In this document: piece by piece, positions 1,140-9,549 of the stretch
How the letters are laid out: every line of letters begins with the position of its first letter
Numbering within the stretch: the stretch's first letter is position 1
NCBI GenBank assembly: GCA_039725535.1
Contig: CP049827.1
Location: 2,224,556-2,256,555, forward strand
Source: Halomonas socia
GTDB lineage: Bacteria; Pseudomonadota; Gammaproteobacteria; Pseudomonadales; Halomonadaceae
Direction: 5' to 3'
DNA length: 32,000 bases
Notes under the pieces: model-generated
Seen by the model: only the letters and a program-made list of their open reading frames with translations
Databases searched by the model: none
Told to the model about the DNA's origin: nothing
Translations under genes and position numbers: made by a program

Positions 1140-1658
1140 ATGCCCTTCCTGTTGCTCTTTACCCTCTTCGCCCTGCTCGATTTCGTCATCCTGTTCTCGG
1201 TGGGCAGCCAGATCGGCCTGCTCACCACCCTGCTGCTGGTGCTGGGCACCGGCGTCATCGGGCTACACCTGGTTCGGCGCCAGGGCGTTGCCACTCTGCA
1301 GCGTGCTCAGCAGCGCTTCGCCCAGGGCGAACTACCCTCCGGTGAACTGATTACCGGCGCCGCCTTGATCTTTGGCGGCGCCCTGCTGATGGCGCCTGGC
1401 TTCGTCTCCGACGCACTGGGCTTCATGTGCCTGATTCCCGGCACCCGGCAGCTACTCGGCCGCGCCTTTGGCCGGGTAGGCGTCAAAGCGCGCGGCTTCA
1501 GTTTCCATCAGCAGCCAGAGCCGAGCCCGGATGACTGGCATCAGGCCACCGGCCAGCGCCCGGCCGACGACTGGCAAGCGCATACCCACGGCCATCGTGA
1601 CGATGCCCAGGGGCCCATCGAGGGCGATTTCATCAGCCGCGACGACTCGCGCCGCTGA
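1140..1658 (+). CDS. fxsA: FxsA family inner-membrane protein
   Basis: The ORF track starts at 1044. The ATG at 1140 has a CAGGAG SD and opens directly on the hydrophobic FxsA N-terminus MPFLLLFTLFALLDFVILFSVGSQIG. Position upstream of groES is the conserved synteny. Confidence 0.85.
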   Translation: MPFLLLFTLFALLDFVILFSVGSQIGLLTTLLLVLGTGVIGLHLVRRQGVATLQRAQQRFAQGELPSGELITGAALIFGGALLMAPGFVSDALGFMCLIPGTRQLLGRAFGRVGVKARGFSFHQQPEPSPDDWHQATGQRPADDWQAHTHGHRDDAQGPIEGDFISRDDSRR

Positions 1659-1693
1659 GTGGCTGAAAAACGTAAAAAATTTTACTTGGCGGC

Positions 1694-1721
1694 CTTGAAA
1701 GGCTTCCTCCAGCCCCCACTG
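1694..1721 (+). promoter_or_regulatory. sigma-32 (RpoH)-type promoter candidate for groES-groEL
   Basis: CTTGAAA (1694-1700), 13-nt spacer, CCCCACTG (1714-1721). An A/T-rich UP-like tract (aaaaacgtaaaaaatttta) lies just upstream. The site is about 150 nt upstream of the groES ATG. Confidence 0.55.
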
Positions 1722-1869
1722 TTGGGCTAGAAGACGAGCTTCGGTTGCCGAGGTCCCCTCGGCACCAATGACAATGAAGGCAACCGCCTTCCCGGAAGCC
1801 CGCTTCCGGAGCTGTTATGGACCGTCGTGAACCATCACGACACAGCAAACCATCAGGAGAACGTGAGCA

Positions 1870-2163
1870 ATGAACATCCGTCCCTTGCACGATCGCGTCG
1901 TAGTCCGTCGCGTCGAAGAAGAACAGAAAACCGCTGGCGGCATCGTGCTCCCGGGCAATGCCCAGGAAAAGCCGACTCGTGGCGAAGTCCTCGCCGTCGG
2001 TAACGGCCGGATTCTCGACAACGGCGAAGTGCGTCCGCTGGACGTCAAGGTCGGCGACACGGTGATCTTCAAGGATGGCTTTGGCGTCGAGAAGCAGAAA
2101 ATCGACGGCGAAGAAGTCCTGATCATGAGCGAGTCCGACATTCTCGCCGTGGTCGAAGGCTAA
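1870..2163 (+). CDS. groES: co-chaperonin GroES
   Basis: 97-aa [17 protein letters not shown]...; AGGAGA SD; immediately upstream of groEL. Confidence 0.97.
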
Positions 2164-2210
2164 GCCTCTACCCGTTACTGCACTGCGTTAGTTTCACGAA
2201 CTCAGATTAG

Positions 2211-3864
<1,654 letters not shown>

Positions 3865-4416
3865 GCGACGAGAGTCGCTTAGGTAGCTAGCCTAGCGGGC
3901 TACATCATTGTGGTCACCGACCCTGGAGTCGGTGGCCACACACCCGCAGAAAAAGCAATTTGCTAAACCCGGTATCCGGGGCTTTCTCAAGACCCGGATA
4001 CCGGTCACCTGTAACTAGGGTGTACCGTTCTCGGTGTCTGGGGGAAACCCCGAGTCCTCGCCTCACGGCGACGGATCTATCAATGCTGAAGTTCGGCCAA
4101 ATGGCCGGATGACGTAGCAGAGATTGCCGTGTCTACAAAGCTTGCTGGCACCTAGTGACGCAAGCCTTTCCTGCTATTGTCTCACCTTGGGGTATTTCGG
4201 GGTAACGAGACCTGTTGTTCAGCCAACAGTAGCCTAGGGGTAGTGCATTACTGGCAACGGTGGTGTGCGAAGCTCCCTGACAATGTAGTCCCACCTCGGT
4301 GGACTGTCCGTGCCGCGAGGCACGCCAGTGACTCTGCCAGCAACAGGCGGATGAGACGCTAGGCTGGGTGGTACGACCAACGCAAGTGAACTGCTGATAA
4401 ACACCGTCAACCGCAA

Positions 4417-4441
4417 GGAGCCAAAGTTGCTGACAGGCTTC
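4417..4441 (+). other. candidate EBS2 hairpin of intron domain I
   Basis: Stem GGAGCC/GGCUUC with 13-nt loop AAAGUUGCUGACA. Loop UGCUG (4428-4432) can pair with exon CGGCA (3851-3855, one G-U), 1 nt upstream of IBS1. It lies about 45 nt upstream of the EBS1 hairpin, the expected order. Confidence 0.4.
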
Positions 4442-4463
4442 AACCAAAAGGTGTGTAGCCGGT

Positions 4464-4486
4464 TATGCCCCTTACATCTGGGCATA
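4464..4486 (+). other. candidate EBS1 hairpin of intron domain I
   Basis: Stem UAUGCCC/GGGCAUA with 9-nt loop CUUACAUCU. UACAUC is the perfect complement of the last 6 exon nt GAUGUA before 3863. The hairpin sits on a further 7-bp stem GUAGCCG (4455-4461) / CGGCUAC (4497-4503). Confidence 0.6.
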
Positions 4487-4518
4487 CGCTGACGCACGGC
4501 TACCGGTGGATAGGCAGG

Positions 4519-4526
4519 GTCTAACC
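4519..4526. repeat. 8-bp target-site duplication (left) of IS66 insertion
   Basis: GTCTAACC lies immediately left of the IS left inverted repeat. An identical 8-mer is at 6988-6995. Confidence 0.85.
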
Positions 4527-4609
4527 GTATGCGCCCGGTGAACACACCTTACGCTGAGGCTCCGCGCCGGCGACATTAGGTGTCCACCTATTTTAAGTGG
4601 GCACCTATC

Positions 4610-4975
4610 ATGACGACCCCAAGTACCGAGCGTGAGATTCGCCGCCGGCGGCGCTACACCCGCGAGTTCAAGGCCAGCGTTATCGCCGCCTGTCAGCAAC
4701 CCGATGTTTCGATTGCCCAAGTGGCCCTGGCATATGGGTTGAACACCAACCTCGTCCAGAAGTGGATCCGCCTGGCTAAGAAACAGAGCCACCTGCCGGC
4801 TCCGCCGGATTTCGTGTCGTTGCCTGTACCCACAACAACTCCAGAAAGGCCATCGGCTCAGCCCTCCTCCTCGGACATTACCATTGAGATCCCCAATGCA
4901 CGTGGTGCCATCACCGTTCGCTGGCCGGTCAGCGATGCCGCGCAATGTGTACAGTGGTTGAAGGGGCTGCTGTGA
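4610..4975 (+). CDS. tnpA: IS66-family accessory protein TnpA (HTH, IS3/IS911-type orfA)
   Basis: MTTPSTEREIRRRRRYTREFKASVIAACQQPDVSIAQVALAYGLNTNLVQKWI... ATG at 4610 is chosen over the GTG at 4580. The stop TGA overlaps the tnpB ATG by 1 nt (TGATG). Confidence 0.85.
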   Translation: MTTPSTEREIRRRRRYTREFKASVIAACQQPDVSIAQVALAYGLNTNLVQKWIRLAKKQSHLPAPPDFVSLPVPTTTPERPSAQPSSSDITIEIPNARGAITVRWPVSDAAQCVQWLKGLL

Positions 4976-5310
4976 TGATTCGCATCGATGAGATCTGGCT
5001 GTCCACCGAGCCGTTAGACATGCGCGCCGGTCCCGATACCGCCCTGGCGCGGGTGGTCAAGGTGTTTGGCACCGCCCGACCACACTGTGCCTACCTGTTC
5101 GCCAACCGCCGCGGCAACCGCATGAAGGTACTGATCCACGATGGCTTGGGAGTCTGGCTCTGTGCTCGCCGACTCAATCAAGGCAAGTTCCACTGGGCCG
5201 GCAACTGGCACGGCGACCAGCTGGAACTGTCATCCGAGCAGGTGGCGGCGCTGGTACAGGGCCTGCCCTGGCAACGCATCGGTCCGGCGGGGGCCATTTC
5301 GGTACTGTAA
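4975..5310 (+). CDS. tnpB: IS66-family Orf2 protein TnpB
   Basis: 111-aa MIRIDEIWLSTEPLDMRAGPDTALARVV...FANRRGNRMKVLIHDGLGVWLCARRL, typical IS66 orf2. Translationally coupled to tnpA. Confidence 0.9.
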   Translation: MIRIDEIWLSTEPLDMRAGPDTALARVVKVFGTARPHCAYLFANRRGNRMKVLIHDGLGVWLCARRLNQGKFHWAGNWHGDQLELSSEQVAALVQGLPWQRIGPAGAISVL

Positions 5311-5404
5311 GTCGCGCGGTGAACTTATCGGCACAGAAGGCGAGCCCTGGCCATTCGATAATCTGCGCATCCCTTTGCTGCTGGCGGGCTGGCATAATCA
5401 GAGG

Positions 5405-6955
5405 ATGAAGACGCCGCCTGACTTGTCCCAACTCTCTCCCGATCAGCTCCGCCACCTGGCGGCAACGCTGATGGCGCAGGTGGAGGAAAAGGACCGGGCG
5501 CTGACACAGAGCCAAGAAACGCTACGCCACACCGAGCAGGTCAATCAGAAGCTGACTTATGAATTGGCGCTGCTTAAGCGCCACGCTTTCGGCAAGCGCA
5601 GCGAACAGCTCAACGTCCTGCAGATCAGCCTGCTGGAGGAGATGGTGGATGCCGACATCGCCGCCATCGAGACTGAGCTTGAGGATCTGAAGCTCACCTC
5701 CACTCCGCCGGTGCCCAAGAAGGCCCCCAAGCGCGCCCCCTTGCCTCCCGAGCTGCCGCGCACCGAGGTTCACCATGATCCGGAGAATGATCATTGCACC
5801 TGCGGTTGCCAGCTGCGGCGGATCGGCGAGGAGATCAGCGAAAAGCTCGACTACACGCCAGGCGTGTTCCACGTCGAGCGCCATGTTCGCGGCAAATGGG
5901 TCTGCGACCAGTGTGAGACGCTGATCCAGGCGCCGATGCCGGCCCAGATCATCGACAAGGGCATCCCCACCGCCGGCCTGCTGGCCCAGGTGCTGATCGC
6001 TAAGTATGCCGATCATCTGCCCCTCTATCGCCAAGAGCAGATCTTTGCCCGTGCCGGTGTACCGATTCCGCGCTCCACCTTGGGCGAGTGGGCTGGCATC
6101 TGCGGGGTGCGGCTCCAGCCACTGGTCGATGCGCTGCGTGACCTGTTGCTTGCCGAGCCCGTGCTGCATGCCGACGAGACCCCGGTGCCGATGCTGGCCC
6201 CAGGCAAGAAGAAGACCCACCGTGCCTACCTCTGGGCTTACGCCACGACGCCCTACGCCGGATTGCAGGCGGTGGTCTACGACTTCAGCGAGGGGCGTGG
6301 CGGTCAGCATGCCCGTGACTTCCTCGGTGAGTGGAAGGGCAAGCTGATCTGCGACGACTACAGCGGCTACAAGCAGAGCTTTGCCAAGGGCGTCACCGAG
6401 ATCGGCTGCATGGCTCATGCGCGACGCAAGTTCGTCGACCTACACGTGGCTGCCAAGAGTCAGATTGCCAAACAGGCCATCGAACTGATCGGCCAGCTTT
6501 ACCAGGTGGAGCGCGAGGCCCAGTCACTGAGCGCGGAAGAACGCCAACGACTGAGGGAGACACGGGCGAGGCCCATCGCCGACGCGCTGCACCGCTGGAT
6601 GTTGGCTCACCGCGAGAAAGTGCCAAACGGCTCGGCGACGGCCAAGGCGCTGGACTATAGCTTGAAGCGTTGGGCGACGCTGACGCGCTACCTCGATGAC
6701 GGCGGGTTACCCATCGACAACAACCGGGTGGAAAACCTGATTCGTCCCTGGGCGCTCGGTCGCAGCAACTGGCTGTTTGCCGGCTCGCTGCGCAGCGGCC
6801 AGCGTGCCGCCAACATCATGAGCCTGATCCAATGCGCCAAGCTGAACGGCCATGAGCCCTACGCTTACCTGAAGGATGTGCTCGAACGGCTGCCGACCCA
6901 GAAGGCCAGCCAGCTCCACGAACTCCTGCCCCACAACTGGCAACTCGTCGACTGA
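5405..6955 (+). CDS. tnpC: IS66-family transposase TnpC
   Basis: 516 aa from ATG 5405 (AGAGGA SD). N-terminal coiled-coil, Cys-cluster HCTCGC...CDQC, and the conserved IS66 DDE core (ADETP..., ...CMAHARRKF..., NNRVENLIRPWALGRSNWLF). The upstream part of ORF 5141-6955 overlaps tnpB in another frame and was discarded. Confidence 0.92.
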   Translation: MKTPPDLSQLSPDQLRHLAATLMAQVEEKDRALTQSQETLRHTEQVNQKLTYELALLKRHAFGKRSEQLNVLQISLLEEMVDADIAAIETELEDLKLTSTPPVPKKAPKRAPLPPELPRTEVHHDPENDHCTCGCQLRRIGEEISEKLDYTPGVFHVERHVRGKWVCDQCETLIQAPMPAQIIDKGIPTAGLLAQVLIAKYADHLPLYRQEQIFARAGVPIPRSTLGEWAGICGVRLQPLVDALRDLLLAEPVLHADETPVPMLAPGKKKTHRAYLWAYATTPYAGLQAVVYDFSEGRGGQHARDFLGEWKGKLICDDYSGYKQSFAKGVTEIGCMAHARRKFVDLHVAAKSQIAKQAIELIGQLYQVEREAQSLSAEERQRLRETRARPIADALHRWMLAHREKVPNGSATAKALDYSLKRWATLTRYLDDGGLPIDNNRVENLIRPWALGRSNWLFAGSLRSGQRAANIMSLIQCAKLNGHEPYAYLKDVLERLPTQKASQLHELLPHNWQLVD

Positions 6956-6987
6956 TCATTCACAAAGGGTGATGCCCGTTCGCTTAC

Positions 6988-6995
6988 GTCTAACC
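6988..6995. repeat. 8-bp target-site duplication (right) of IS66 insertion
   Basis: GTCTAACC lies immediately right of the IS right inverted repeat, identical to 4519-4526. Confidence 0.85.
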
Positions 6996-7344
6996 CACTC
7001 ATGTAGAAGGAAAGGAACTCGGTAAGCCCGTATCTCTGCCCTCGGGCAGGCGAGCCGCAAGGCAAGCTGTTGGAGGTGCGGGTAGAGGAGGACAGAAAAA
7101 GCGAATGCCCGTCTGTAATGGACGGGATAGGGGTTCGAACTTTGCCCCGACGCGAAAGCGTGCTGACTTCTGTCTGGTCTCTGATCGCGTGAAGGCGTGT
7201 AAAGCCGCCTGATAAGCACCATCCGCGGTTTGGATGGACAGAACGAATGCCCTTGCGGGGTGAGGCTCACCTTCCCCGCAAGGGGATAGTGCCGTCTTCC
7301 CCCCTCGGGGCATTTTTCGTCAATGCTCAGAGGAGGATAGCAAG

Positions 7345-9000
7345 ATGAGTACTCTTGAAAGCGTACCTGCATTCTCCCACTCGGCATCAAGCTGGCACAC
7401 CATCGATTGGAAGGTCTGCCATCGCCGTGTGAGGAGGCTACAGGTACGGATCGCGAAGGCTGCCCATGACCAGAAGTGGCGCAGGGTCAAATCCCTGCAA
7501 CGCATGCTGGTCCGCTCGTTCTCAGCCAGGGCACTGGCTGTGAAGCGCGTCACCGAGAACCAGGGCAAGAAAACGCCTGGTGTCGATGGGGCATGCTGGG
7601 ACACTCCGGATGACAAGTGGGAAGCGATCTTCCGTTTGCAGCGGAAGGGCTACAAGCCCAGACCGCTTCGCCGGGTCTATATCCCAAAGGCCAACGGTCA
7701 ACGTCGGCCGCTGGGAATCCCGACGATGCTGGATCGCGCCATGCAGGCAATGTACCTGCTTGGGCTCGAACCGGTAGCAGAAACGACGGCGGATCGGAAC
7801 TCCTACGGCTTTCGGCCCATGCGAGCCACCGCGGATGCGATTGAGCAATGCTTCGTCAATCTCAGCCGCAAGCACTCGGCTAAGTGGGTACTCGAAGGCG
7901 ACATCAAGGGGTGCTTCGACAACATCGACCACGAGTGGCTGGTCCGGAATATCCCCATGGATAGGACGGTCCTCCGCAAGTGGCTTAAAGCGGGATACAT
8001 GGAGTCCTCACGGCTCCTTCCGACGACGGCGGGAACACCGCAAGGTGGCATCATCTCGCCGGCATTGGCCAATATGGCGCTTGACGGTTTGGAAGCGGTG
8101 CTCGAATCCCAATTCGGGAAGAAGAACACCAAGGCCAGCTACAAGACCAAGGTCAATTATGTGCGGTACGCGGACGATTTCATCATCACCGGCATCTCCA
8201 AGGAGCTGCTGGAGGAGGACGTGAAACCCATCGTCGAGGCCTTCATGGCCGAGCGTGGGCTCACGCTCTCAGTGGAGAAGTCCGTCGTCACGCACATAGC
8301 GGAGGGATTCGACTTCCTGGGCCAGAATATTCGCAAGTACAGTGACAAGTGCCTCATCAAGCCGAGCCACAAGAACGTGAAGACTTTCTTGGCCAACGTA
8401 AGGAAGCTGTTGAACGCCAACAAGACCATGCCTGCCTGGTGGATCGTGGATCAGCTCAACCCGATGATTCGGGGCTGGACCAACTACCATCGGGGAGTCG
8501 CGGCCAAGGAGACGTTCAACTACGTGGACTACCGCATCTGGAAGATGCTATGGCAATGGTGCAAGAGACGGCACCTGAGCCGGCGCAAGCGCTGGATCAA
8601 GGGGAAGTACTTCCCTCCAGCAGGCAAGCGTCAGTGGGTCTTCCAGGGTGAGTATCCCGGCGGCAAGCGAGCGTATCTGCTCTATGCCAGCGATGTGCCG
8701 ATCAAGCGGCATACCAAGATCAAGGCGGAAGCGAACCCTTACGACCCGGCGTTCGAGACCTATTTCGAGGAACGGCTGGAACGTTCCTGGAAGGAATCGA
8801 CAAAGGGAAGGAAGAAGCTGCAGACGCTCTGGTCCCGGCAAGGCAAGCGCTGCCCGATGTGCCAACAGTTCATCACCTGGGAAACCGGGTGGAACATCCA
8901 CCACGTGGTGGAGAGGCACAAGGGTGGCGGTGACGAGCTGGACAACCTGGTACTGCTGCATCCCAACTGCCACCGTCAGCTGCATCACGGTAGTGGATGA
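7345..9000 (+). CDS. ltrA: group II intron-encoded protein: reverse transcriptase / maturase / HNH endonuclease
   Basis: 551 aa. RT motifs include RPLGIPTMLDR and YADD (VRYADDFIITG). Maturase X motif is MIRGWTNYHRG. C-terminal H-N-H domain is CPMCQQ...HHVVERHKGGGDELDNLVLLHPNCHRQLH. GAGGAGG SD. Located inside domain IV. Confidence 0.95.
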   Translation: MSTLESVPAFSHSASSWHTIDWKVCHRRVRRLQVRIAKAAHDQKWRRVKSLQRMLVRSFSARALAVKRVTENQGKKTPGVDGACWDTPDDKWEAIFRLQRKGYKPRPLRRVYIPKANGQRRPLGIPTMLDRAMQAMYLLGLEPVAETTADRNSYGFRPMRATADAIEQCFVNLSRKHSAKWVLEGDIKGCFDNIDHEWLVRNIPMDRTVLRKWLKAGYMESSRLLPTTAGTPQGGIISPALANMALDGLEAVLESQFGKKNTKASYKTKVNYVRYADDFIITGISKELLEEDVKPIVEAFMAERGLTLSVEKSVVTHIAEGFDFLGQNIRKYSDKCLIKPSHKNVKTFLANVRKLLNANKTMPAWWIVDQLNPMIRGWTNYHRGVAAKETFNYVDYRIWKMLWQWCKRRHLSRRKRWIKGKYFPPAGKRQWVFQGEYPGGKRAYLLYASDVPIKRHTKIKAEANPYDPAFETYFEERLERSWKESTKGRKKLQTLWSRQGKRCPMCQQFITWETGWNIHHVVERHKGGGDELDNLVLLHPNCHRQLHHGSG

Positions 9001-9058
9001 TCGACCAGGGTCAGCACTGCTGCTAGCATGTAACTTCATGTATGCGCAGGAGCTGATC

Positions 9059-9358
9059 ATGGGCGTCACAAAAAGGTGGATGGAGCAGGAAGAGCAAAAA
9101 CTCAACGTCGCCACGGGGATAGCCATACGAGCAGGCGTGCTAGATCGCTGTGAGTTCTGCGATAGTACGGTGTACTCGACCGGCGAAAGCGTTGAGGAAG
9201 CTTATAAAGTCGGTAATACCATGTTCTCAAATGGTGAACTTGATGCGTTCGAGTCTCGCAGAGAGATGACTGATGCCATCAAGGCCACAGTAGAGAGCCC
9301 GGACCATGCCGGCGATTGCTGCTACCACTGCCACGAAAGGATGTTCGGCGACGACTGA
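9059..9358 (+). CDS. hypothetical 99-aa Cys-rich protein (C31xxC34 ... C87C88xxC91), second ORF inside intron domain IV
   Basis: ATG 9059 is preceded by AGGAG (9048-9052) at 6-nt spacing. The stop at 9356-9358 is 2 nt before the 3' strand of the domain IV stem. Sequence: MGVTKRWMEQEEQKLNVATGIAIRAGVLDRCEFCDSTVYSTGESVEEAYKVGNTMFSNGELDAFESRREMTDAIKATVESPDHAGDCCYHCHERMFGDD. I recognise no family. Confidence 0.55.
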   Translation: MGVTKRWMEQEEQKLNVATGIAIRAGVLDRCEFCDSTVYSTGESVEEAYKVGNTMFSNGELDAFESRREMTDAIKATVESPDHAGDCCYHCHERMFGDD

Positions 9359-9403
9359 GCAGATGGCAGTCGGCCTGTACCTTGTACGGGTTTACAGAGG
9401 CTT

Positions 9404-9437
9404 GAGCCGTATGCGGGGAAACTCGCACGTACGGTTC
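9404..9437 (+). ncRNA. group II intron domain V (catalytic hairpin)
   Basis: 34 nt with an AGC triad, 9-bp lower helix, 2-nt AC bulge, 5-bp upper helix and GAAA tetraloop. Confidence 0.92.
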
Positions 9438-9440
9438 TTA

Positions 9441-9475
9441 GGGGGCGGCGGGGCAGAAATGCCCTGCTGCTACCC
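9441..9475 (+). ncRNA. group II intron domain VI with branch-point adenosine (A9472)
   Basis: 15-bp helix (GGGGGCGGCGGGGCA / UGCCCUGCUGCU-A-CCC) capped by GAAA. A single bulged A lies 7 nt from the 3' splice site. The intron ends in AC. Confidence 0.8.
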
Positions 9476-9515
9476 GACAGCCAGCCCCCTGCCCCAGGCA
9501 CTGCCTGAGACAGAC

Positions 9516-9549
9516 CCCGCCGGTGAGAACCGGCGGGTTTTTTTATTTT
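9516..9549 (+). terminator. rho-independent terminator (displaced groESL terminator)
   Basis: Stem CCCGCCGG (9516-9523) / CCGGCGGG (9530-9537), loop TGAGAA, then TTTTTTTATTTT. It lies 37 nt downstream of the intron 3' end. Confidence 0.88.

What the first reader, a model, noticed from the sequence alone, without database searches (positions are those of the whole stretch)
4519..6995. Complete IS66-family element nested in ribozyme domain I of the intron
A 2461-bp IS66 element lies inside intron domain I, just 3' of the EBS1 arm.
- It has tnpA, tnpB and tnpC, 22-bp imperfect IRs with GTAAGCG-type termini, and an intact 8-bp duplication GTCTAACC.
- The perfect TSD and intact ORFs suggest a recent insertion.
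- It should disrupt domain I folding and so disable self-splicing and retrohoming in cis, even though the IEP, domain V and domain VI remain intact.
- Because the intron sits in the stop codon, this inactivation costs GroEL nothing. That makes the site a safe harbour where mobile elements can pile up next to an essential gene.
Basis: seen in the sequence. Interest (0 to 1): 0.6.

Follow-up and report, generated by a model that had tools for sequence, protein, structure and literature searches.

The report
IS66 transposon inside groEL intron
[quoted passage not shown] This is a real but ordinary case of one mobile element hitting another, and it probably cripples the intron without harming groEL.

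Summary
Window 4527-6987 is a 2461-bp IS66-family element (tnpA, tnpB, tnpC, imperfect inverted repeats) flanked by the 8-bp duplication GTCTAACC.

- **Independent element.** The genome holds five full-length copies with at most one base difference. Four have their own 8-bp duplications at unrelated sites.
- **Host.** The host is a group IIB1 intron (window 3863-9478) of the published groEL stop-codon clade.
- **Empty site.** A 97-99% identical intron in Halomonas salifodinae carries one GTCTAACC. So do contigs from three public runs. 47 other groEL introns are uninterrupted at this point.
- **Position.** Covariation in 48 introns places the insertion in the 3' strand of the basal helix of subdomain Id. 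That is 40 nt after the EBS1 hairpin and 26 nt before the end of domain I.
- **Specificity.** The IS is not intron-specific.
- **Function.** Loss of splicing is plausible but untested. The duplication leaves every helix formally formable, and domain-I-split introns can still splice with their maturase.
- **groEL.** It keeps a complete frame ending in UAG.
- **Safe-harbour idea.** Support is anecdotal: one other groEL intron holds an IS21.

The scan had already noted the intron, its passenger ORF and the shared gene orientation on this same window.

The parts
2223..3863 (+). groEL (546 aa). Its stop codon TAG is made of exon TA plus the first intron base G.
   Evidence: Pfam Cpn60_TCP1, E 3e-74. 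Intron-free alleles in related species read ...ATGATGTA|AGCC, giving TAA.
3863..9478 (+). Group IIB1 intron of the groEL stop-codon clade. It is 5616 bp with the IS and 3147 nt without the IS and one copy of the duplication.
   Evidence: Rfam group-II-D1D4-7 at 4211-4358 (114.8 bits) and Intron_gpII (DV-DVI) at 9402-9478 (67 bits). Exact limits come from intron-free alleles. Clade description is in PMC12584367.
3873..4164 (+). Subdomain Ia, the 5'-subterminal insertion typical of this intron clade (about 292 nt). It lies between helix I(i) and helix I(ii).
   Evidence: I(i) pairs intron nt 7-10 with 687-690. I(ii) pairs 303-310 with 677-684. Both are supported by covariation in 48 introns. Described for the clade in PMC12584367.
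4366..4371 (+). 5' strand of the basal helix 'd' of subdomain Id (intron nt 504-509).
   Evidence: Its six pairs are 99% standard with 26 pair types across 48 introns. Controls with the partner slid by 1-3 columns give 33-48%.
4464..4486 (+). EBS1 hairpin. Loop nt 4473-4478 (UACAUC) pair with the last six exon bases GAUGUA (3857-3862).
   Evidence: Read directly in the sequence. The 7-bp stem is 100% standard with 23 pair types.
4519..4526 (.). Left copy of the 8-bp target-site duplication GTCTAACC (intron nt 657-664).
   Evidence: A single copy is present in H. salifodinae L018 at 5644-5651.
4527..6987 (+). IS66-family insertion sequence, 2461 bp, in the same orientation as groESL and the intron.
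   Evidence: Five full-length copies in the genome, identical or one base different, matching over exactly positions 1-2461.
4527..4550 (.). Left inverted repeat, starting GTATGCG.
   Evidence: Alignment of the two ends.
4610..4975 (+). tnpA (121 aa).
   Evidence: NCBIfam IS66_ISRel24_TnpA, 92.4 bits against a cut-off of 74. Pfam HTH_Tnp_1.
4975..5310 (+). tnpB (111 aa). Its ATG overlaps the tnpA stop codon by one base.
   Evidence: Pfam TnpB_IS66, E 1.6e-25. NCBIfam IS66_TnpB. Junction read.
5405..6955 (+). tnpC, the DDE transposase (516 aa from the ATG at 5405; a TTG at 5375 is an alternative start).
   Evidence: Pfam DDE_Tnp_IS66 E 1.5e-105, zf-IS66, LZ_Tnp_IS66 and DDE_Tnp_IS66_C. NCBIfam transpos_IS66, 477 bits.
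6964..6987 (.). Right inverted repeat. Its reverse complement starts GTAAGCG.
6988..6995 (.). Right copy of the duplication GTCTAACC.
6996..7021 (+). The rest of domain I after the IS. It holds the 3' strands of helix d (6996-7000), I(ii) (7008-7015) and I(i) (7018-7021).
   Evidence: Covariation counts.
7345..9000 (+). Intron-encoded protein (551 aa): reverse transcriptase, maturase and HNH endonuclease. It is intact and the YADD motif is present.
   Evidence: Pfam RVT_N, RVT_1, GIIM and HNH. TIGR04416, 373 bits. 97% identical to the H. salifodinae protein.
9059..9358 (+). Passenger ORF in domain IV (99 aa, lambda Ea8.5-like). It is part of the intron, not of the IS.
   Evidence: Pfam Lambda_ea8_5, E 1.2e-10. 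Called as a gene in a near-identical genome.
9402..9478 (+). Domains V and VI and the 3' splice site.
   Evidence: Rfam RF00029, 67 bits.
9516..9547 (+). Native groESL intrinsic terminator, now 5.6 kb downstream of the groEL stop codon.
   Evidence: It is the only convincing + strand terminator between 1500 and 9700.

Best explanation
**What is shown**
- A resident, recently active IS66-family element transposed into the DNA that encodes the base of subdomain Id of a groEL stop-codon group IIB1 intron. It is one of five near-identical copies in this chromosome.
- It made the usual 8-bp duplication.
- The hit was not targeted. The other copies sit at unrelated sequences and none is near intron DNA.
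- The site is tolerated because the intron lies after the last sense codon of groEL. GroEL is therefore made in full whether or not the intron splices.

**What is inferred**
- About 65% likely: the 2469 extra nucleotides separate the distal part of Id from the 3' strands that close helix d, I(ii) and I(i). The distal part carries the EBS1 hairpin and a candidate EBS2 loop.
- Domain I would then rarely fold, splicing in cis would fall sharply, and the 5.6-kb composite would no longer be an effective retrotransposon.
- The reverse-transcriptase gene, domain V and domain VI are still intact only because the event is recent.
- The IS genes, the RT gene and the passenger ORF now all lie, in sense, between the groESL promoter region and the only recognisable terminator. 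Read-through transcription from the heat-shock operon could reach them. This is not shown.
For: **Independent IS**
- Five copies, exact ends, and 8-bp duplications at four of the five.
- IS66 domain and family matches above the curated cut-offs.

**Empty site**
- H. salifodinae L018 aligns to window 1611-4526 and 6988-8985 with the 8-mer shared between the two blocks.
- Contigs from runs X1, X8 and X16 join 4518 to 6988, skipping 2469 bases with 8 shared letters. None of them covers the IS.
- 47 other groEL introns align straight across the site.

**Position**
- The insertion lies between intron nt 664 and 665, within helix d (504-509/664-669). The helix is 99% standard pairs with 26 pair types, against 33-48% in slid controls.
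- Domain I ends at nt 690.
- The loop bases U660, A661 and A662 inside the duplicated 8-mer are the same base in 48, 47 and 45 of the 48 introns.

**Folding**
- The minimum-energy fold of IS-free domain I recovers 39 of 39 comparative base pairs.
- With the IS it keeps I(i) and I(ii) but 0 of 27 Id pairs.

**Not targeted**
- The duplications are unrelated.
- There is no intron DNA beside the other copies or beside relatives of the IS.

**groEL and homing**
- groEL is intact with a UAG stop (PMC12584367).
- There is a single groEL and no free homing site in the genome.

**Not an assembly error**
- A second complete assembly (CP048812.1) has the same arrangement.
- Three run-level contigs break 29 nt inside the right IS end.
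Against: - Splicing was not measured. No RNA run of this strain could be laid.
- Because of the duplication, the d(i) 3' strand is complete upstream of the IS and the helix d 3' strand is complete downstream. Formally the IS is a 2469-nt loop in an internal loop, not a broken helix.
- Ll.LtrB cut within domain I still trans-splices in vivo with its maturase, raising conjugation about 240,000-fold over background (PMC1874635).
- Minimum-energy folds of 3-kb RNAs are unreliable.
Confidence: 0.75

Rival explanations
1. The composite still works. The duplication lets all domain I helices form around the IS. With help from the intact maturase, the intron still splices at a reduced but real rate. 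It might even retrohome, carrying the IS as cargo.
For: - The helix strands are intact on both sides of the IS.
- The IEP, DV and DVI are intact.
- Domain-I-fragmented Ll.LtrB trans-splices with LtrA (PMC1874635).
- The clade tolerates the large Ia insertion and long domain IV cargo, and stays highly mobile at 3.2 kb (PMC12584367).
Against: - The insertion is 2.5 kb of translated, GC-rich RNA inside the folding core, not in a peripheral loop.
- The predicted fold loses all Id helices.
- The invariant UAA loop is next to the junction.
- No composite copy was seen in any other genome or run examined.
Confidence: 0.22
2. The IS66 is a specialised parasite of group II introns and recognises this conserved piece of domain I. 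Some IS110, serine-recombinase and RIT elements noted elsewhere in this scan behave this way.
For: The target 8-mer covers conserved intron positions. Intron-targeting elements were noted elsewhere in the scan.
Against: - The four other copies lie at unrelated sequences with unrelated duplications.
- No intron DNA flanks them or the 80-84% relatives in other genomes of the family.
- 47 related introns have no insertion at this site.
Confidence: 0.02
3. The arrangement is an assembly artefact, or the 2.46-kb segment is an original part of the intron rather than an independent element.
For: Repeated elements are a common source of misassembly.
Against: - Two complete assemblies agree apart from a single 1-base indel.
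- Independent run contigs end 29 nt inside the right IS end.
- The element has exact ends, a flanking duplication and free-standing copies.
- An empty site exists in a 97-99% identical intron.
Confidence: 0.01

Closest known systems
IS66 family insertion sequences (IS66 of the Agrobacterium Ti plasmid, IS679, ISRel24-type tnpA). Family features are taken from general knowledge of the ISfinder description.
   Same: Size of about 2.5 kb. tnpA-tnpB-tnpC order with an overlapping tnpA stop and tnpB start. TnpC with a leucine zipper, zinc finger and DDE_Tnp_IS66 core. Imperfect terminal repeats of the GTAAGCG type. 8-bp duplication. Several identical copies.
   Different: The left end reads GTATGCG instead of GTAAGCG. 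The nearest relatives found are only 80-88% identical, and many share only the tnpB-tnpC part. It is therefore an unnamed isoform of the family within this bacterial family.
groEL stop-codon group IIB1 introns: Avi.groEL of Azotobacter vinelandii and EcKTE56.groEL of E. coli (PMC12584367).
   Same: Insertion between the second and third base of the groEL stop codon, changing UAA to UAG. 5' GUGCGACGAGAGUCG. A large subdomain Ia at the base of domain I. An RT with a C-terminal HNH endonuclease. About 3.1 kb without the IS.
   Different: This copy carries an IS66 in subdomain Id. The published members are uninterrupted and mobile.
Other nested IS in a groEL intron: Halopseudomonas pachastrellae JCM 12285 (locus L080).
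   Same: A transposon sits inside a groEL stop-codon intron while groEL stays intact.
   Different: That one is an IS21 (IstA/IstB), antisense, inside the RT gene rather than in the ribozyme.
Fragmented or trans-splicing group II introns: Chlamydomonas psaA intron 1 and engineered Ll.LtrB (PMC1874635).
   Same: Continuity of domain I is interrupted, yet the helices can in principle reassemble.
   Different: In those cases the pieces are separate transcripts that evolved or were designed to reassemble. Here a 2.5-kb coding insert remains covalently in place.

Membership tests
IS66 family insertion sequence | Three co-oriented ORFs tnpA, tnpB and tnpC | tested here: met
   NCBIfam IS66 TnpA (92 bits, cut-off 74), IS66_TnpB (86, cut-off 50) and transpos_IS66 (477, cut-off 180). 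Pfam matches.
IS66 family insertion sequence | tnpA stop codon overlaps the tnpB start codon (translational coupling) | tested here: met
   The TGA at 4973-4975 and the ATG at 4975-4977 share one base. The same gene calls appear in a near-identical genome.
IS66 family insertion sequence | TnpC carries the DDE_Tnp_IS66 core with a zinc finger and a leucine zipper | tested here: met
   PF03050 E 1.5e-105, PF13005 E 1.9e-12, PF13007 E 8.5e-15 and PF13817 E 1.1e-16. The catalytic residues were not inspected one by one.
IS66 family insertion sequence | Imperfect terminal inverted repeats beginning GTAA(GCG) | tested here: met
   The right end is GTAAGCG. The left end is GTATGCG, one base off. About 15 of 23 positions match ungapped.
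IS66 family insertion sequence | 8-bp target-site duplication | tested here: met
   Four of five copies have perfect 8-bp duplications. The copy at genome 1335241-1337701 has none.
IS66 family insertion sequence | Moves as an independent unit (free-standing copies and an empty site) | tested here: met
   Five copies with identical ends. Empty site in L018 and in runs X1, X8 and X16.
groEL stop-codon group IIB1 intron clade | Inserted between the 2nd and 3rd base of the groEL stop codon, changing UAA to UAG | tested here: met
   Intron-free alleles join window 3862 to 9479, giving TA|A. The window reads TA|G.
groEL stop-codon group IIB1 intron clade | Group II ribozyme core (5' GUGCG, domain I, domain V, and domain VI with a bulged A) | tested here: met
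   Rfam RF02012 (114.8 bits) and RF00029 (67 bits). Covarying domain I helices.
groEL stop-codon group IIB1 intron clade | [quoted passage not shown] | tested here: met
   About 292 nt lie between the I(i) 5' strand (nt 7-10) and the I(ii) 5' strand (nt 303-310).
groEL stop-codon group IIB1 intron clade | CL1-lineage RT with a C-terminal endonuclease domain | tested here: inconclusive
   The domain order RVT_N, RVT_1, GIIM, HNH is present. Dozens of groEL-intron RTs are 66-97% identical. No RT phylogeny against named CL1 references was made.
groEL stop-codon group IIB1 intron clade | EBS1-IBS1 pairing with the end of groEL | tested here: met
   The loop UACAUC (4473-4478) is complementary to GAUGUA (3857-3862). 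EBS2 was assigned only tentatively.
groEL stop-codon group IIB1 intron clade | Splices and retrohomes | not testable with these tools
   No RNA data of this strain could be laid. The runs that hold the intron are other organisms with the IS-free form.

The most novel reading that the evidence does not exclude
The IS66 is now a sense-strand passenger of a heat-shock transcription unit and of a retrotransposon. If the composite intron still folds around the IS (the duplication allows it), two things would follow. First, groESL read-through would tie IS66 transposase expression to heat stress. Second, the IS could be copied into the groEL stop codons of new hosts through the intron's RNA intermediate. 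That route would let a DNA transposon spread by retrohoming.
Probability: 0.06. Interest if true: 0.6.

Novelty: new member of a known kind. Interest (0 to 1): 0.25.

Why it matters
- **Annotation.** The region between groEL and trmJ is one intron carrying one IS and one passenger gene. It is not a string of separate genes.
- **A natural paired experiment.** This strain and Halomonas salifodinae carry 97-99% identical groEL introns with and without a 2.5-kb insert at the base of subdomain Id. Comparing them would show how much interruption domain I of a IIB1 intron tolerates in vivo.
- **Limits of the finding.** One mobile element landing in another, at a place where the host gene is unaffected, is expected and common. 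This IS shows no sign of seeking introns.

Tried and rejected
- **Other intron copies in the same genome.** None were found. BLAST returns only the window's own two pieces. The empty site therefore had to come from another species.
- **Same-genus relatives.** The five species of the same genus that were searched lack the intron. That was useful only for fixing its limits.
- **RNA evidence for splicing.**
  - The RNA runs found are metatranscriptomes that hold the IS-free intron of other organisms. They say nothing about this strain.
- **Intron-targeting IS.** Rejected.
- **A second groEL or a free homing site.**
  - There is none.
  - A look-alike site at genome position 1482308 is the 3' end of another gene, probably the flagellar cap gene fliD. 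That name rests only on the look of the translated sequence and was not tested. The gene ends ...GGMGGMM with TAG.
- **Fuzzy regex search for domain V.** It timed out and was replaced by blastn-short.
- **Paper search for IS66 interrupting group II introns.** Nothing relevant was found.
- **Naming the organism.** Not attempted further. The nearest named carrier of the intron is Halomonas salifodinae JCM 14803. A near-identical genome is CP048812.1.
Full report
**1. The observation**

The window carries groES (1870-2163) and groEL (2223-3863) on the + strand. Directly after the TA of the groEL stop codon the sequence reads GTGCGAC.

Rfam finds a group II domain I segment at 4211-4358 (114.8 bits) and domains V-VI at 9402-9478 (67 bits).

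Intron-free groEL alleles from five species of the same genus and one of another genus in the family join window 3862 directly to 9479 (...ATGATGTA|AGCC). The intron is therefore exactly 3863-9478. Insertion turned TAA into TAG.

Inside it, GTCTAACC occurs at 4519-4526 and 6988-6995 and flanks 2461 bp.

**2. The 2461 bp are an independent IS66 element**

- The same genome has five full-length copies matching over exactly positions 1-2461, with 0 or 1 mismatch.
- Four copies have perfect 8-bp duplications of unrelated sequence. One copy has none.
- The genes are:
  - tnpA, 4610-4975;
  - tnpB, 4975-5310, with a start codon that overlaps the tnpA stop by one base;
  - tnpC, 5405-6955.
- All three score above the curated NCBIfam cut-offs for IS66. 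TnpC has the full Pfam set: leucine zipper, zinc finger, DDE core and C-terminal element.
- The ends are imperfect inverted repeats, GTATGCG... on the left and GTAAGCG... on the right.
- Relatives elsewhere in the bacterial family are at most 80-88% identical.

**3. The empty site**

The intron-encoded protein is 97% identical to one in Halomonas salifodinae JCM 14803 (L018). That locus also has the intron in the groEL stop codon.

- It aligns to window 1611-4526 and 6988-8985, with the 8-mer shared between the two blocks. It therefore has one GTCTAACC and no IS.
- Contigs from three public runs (one metatranscriptome and two DNA runs) also join 4518 to 6988, skipping 2469 bases. None of them holds the IS.
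- 47 further groEL-intron loci from Gammaproteobacteria and a few other groups align straight across the site.
- Only a near-identical genome (CP048812.1, one homopolymer indel in 13.7 kb) shares the IS. Three run-level contigs break 29 nt inside the right IS end.

**4. Where the IS lies in the ribozyme**

The intron belongs to the published clade of IIB1 introns in the groEL stop codon. That clade has a large 5'-subterminal subdomain Ia and an RT with an endonuclease domain (PMC12584367).

I aligned 48 of these introns, using the window's intron with the IS removed, and took an RNAalifold consensus. I then counted pairs for each helix.

| Helix | Intron nt paired |
|---|---|
| I(i) | 7-10 / 687-690 |
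| I(ii) | 303-310 / 677-684 |
| Id helix d | 504-509 / 664-669 |
| d(i) | 513-516 / 656-659 |
| d(ii) | 529-533 / 651-655 |
| d(iii) | 540-544 / 642-646 |
| EBS1 hairpin | 602-624 |

- All are 89-100% standard pairs with many compensatory changes. Sliding the partner by 1-3 columns drops helix d to 33-48%.
- The EBS1 loop UACAUC (4473-4478) pairs with the last six exon bases.
- The IS lies between nt 664 and 665. That is inside the 3' strand of helix d, 40 nt after the EBS1 hairpin and 26 nt before the end of domain I.
- The duplicated 8-mer (nt 657-664) covers three bases of the d(i) 3' strand, an internal loop and the first pair of helix d. Loop bases U660, A661 and A662 are the same base in 48, 47 and 45 of the 48 introns.

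**5. What it does to the intron**

This part is inference.

*For inactivation*
- 2469 nt of coding RNA now separate the distal Id from the strands that close d, I(ii) and I(i). The distal Id holds the EBS1 hairpin and a candidate EBS2 loop.
- The minimum-energy fold of IS-free domain I reproduces all 39 comparative pairs.
- With the IS it keeps I(i) and I(ii) and loses all 27 Id pairs.

*Against certainty*
- The duplication leaves the d(i) strand complete upstream and the d strand complete downstream. No helix is formally destroyed.
- Ll.LtrB split within domain I still trans-splices in vivo with its maturase (PMC1874635).
- No RNA data for the strain were available.

I put about 65% on a severe loss of splicing and mobility and about 22% on residual function.

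**6. Cost to the host, and context**

- groEL ends in UAG at the first intron base, so GroEL does not depend on splicing (PMC12584367).
- The only convincing + strand terminator between 1500 and 9700 is the native one at 9516-9537. The IS genes, the RT gene and a passenger ORF therefore lie in sense inside the potential groESL read-through unit. Whether transcription gets that far is unknown.
- The genome has a single groEL and no free homing site.

**7. Targeted or accidental?**

It looks accidental. The other copies have unrelated targets. No intron DNA lies next to them or next to relatives of the IS in other genomes.

As for 'piling up', one other groEL intron of 47 carries a nested IS. 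Halopseudomonas pachastrellae (L080, 5362 nt) has an antisense IS21 in its RT gene. That is an anecdote, not a rate.

**8. Verdict**

This is a real, well-delimited and recent IS66 insertion in domain I of a known kind of intron. It is a new member of known kinds on both sides, with an untested but plausible inactivating effect. Interest is modest. The pair of strains with and without the IS would make a neat splicing experiment.

Earlier notes of this scan on the same window had already recorded the intron, the passenger ORF and the shared orientation. I reached the passenger-ORF observation independently, and it agrees with that earlier follow-up.

Noticed in passing
window 9001-9401 (ORF 9059-9358, +): A 99-aa lambda Ea8.5-like ORF sits in intron domain IV after the RT gene. 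In the otherwise 97-99% identical H. salifodinae intron, this roughly 400-nt segment is replaced by one encoding a DUF2188 protein. Among 28 post-RT ORFs from related groEL introns, 7 are DUF2188, 4 Ea8.5-like, 1 DUF1508, 1 NarE-like and 15 unassigned. Seven introns have almost no gap here, 11-70 nt between the RT stop and domain V. An earlier follow-up of this scan (e1-2454941) already covers this.
   Followed up: partly
L080:7271-9942 (Halopseudomonas pachastrellae JCM 12285): An IS21-family element (IstA and IstB, antisense) is nested in the RT gene of that species' groEL stop-codon intron. It is a second, independent IS within this intron clade.
   Followed up: partly
L035, L047, L042, L044, L023: In several loci the intron 3' end (...CCCGAC) is followed at once by another intron 5' end (GTGCGACG or ATGCGA). 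L047 has two full cores 3 kb apart. These look like tandem groEL introns.
   Followed up: no
window 2223-9478 compared with L018: groEL is 88.7% identical between the two organisms, but the intron is 97-99% identical. This points to recent horizontal spread of the intron between lineages.
   Followed up: partly
genome G000:C1:1335241-1337701: The fifth IS66 copy has no flanking 8-bp duplication. That suggests a later rearrangement or an adjacent deletion at that site.
   Followed up: no
genome G000:C1 about 1482285-1482320: Another gene ends ...GGMGGMM with TAG. It is probably the flagellar cap gene fliD, judged only from the look of the translated sequence. It matches 23 of the last 24 bases of groEL, the intron's exon-binding target, yet it is not invaded. 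Its stop is TAG, so the first 3' base differs from the target.
   Followed up: partly
window 5728 compared with L097 (CP048812.1): The only difference in 13.7 kb between the two assemblies is a run of C (5 versus 4) in tnpC. It truncates the transposase call in CP048812.1. It is probably a homopolymer sequencing error, since all other copies have 5 C.
   Followed up: yes
loci L102-L105 and plasmid NZ_CP130611.1: Many relatives of this IS66 in the family match only from about position 440 onward (tnpB and tnpC). The tnpA module therefore seems to have been exchanged between IS66 lineages.
   Followed up: no
window 3969-4004: A 16-bp near-perfect hairpin without a T run lies inside subdomain Ia. 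Its role is unknown.
   Followed up: no
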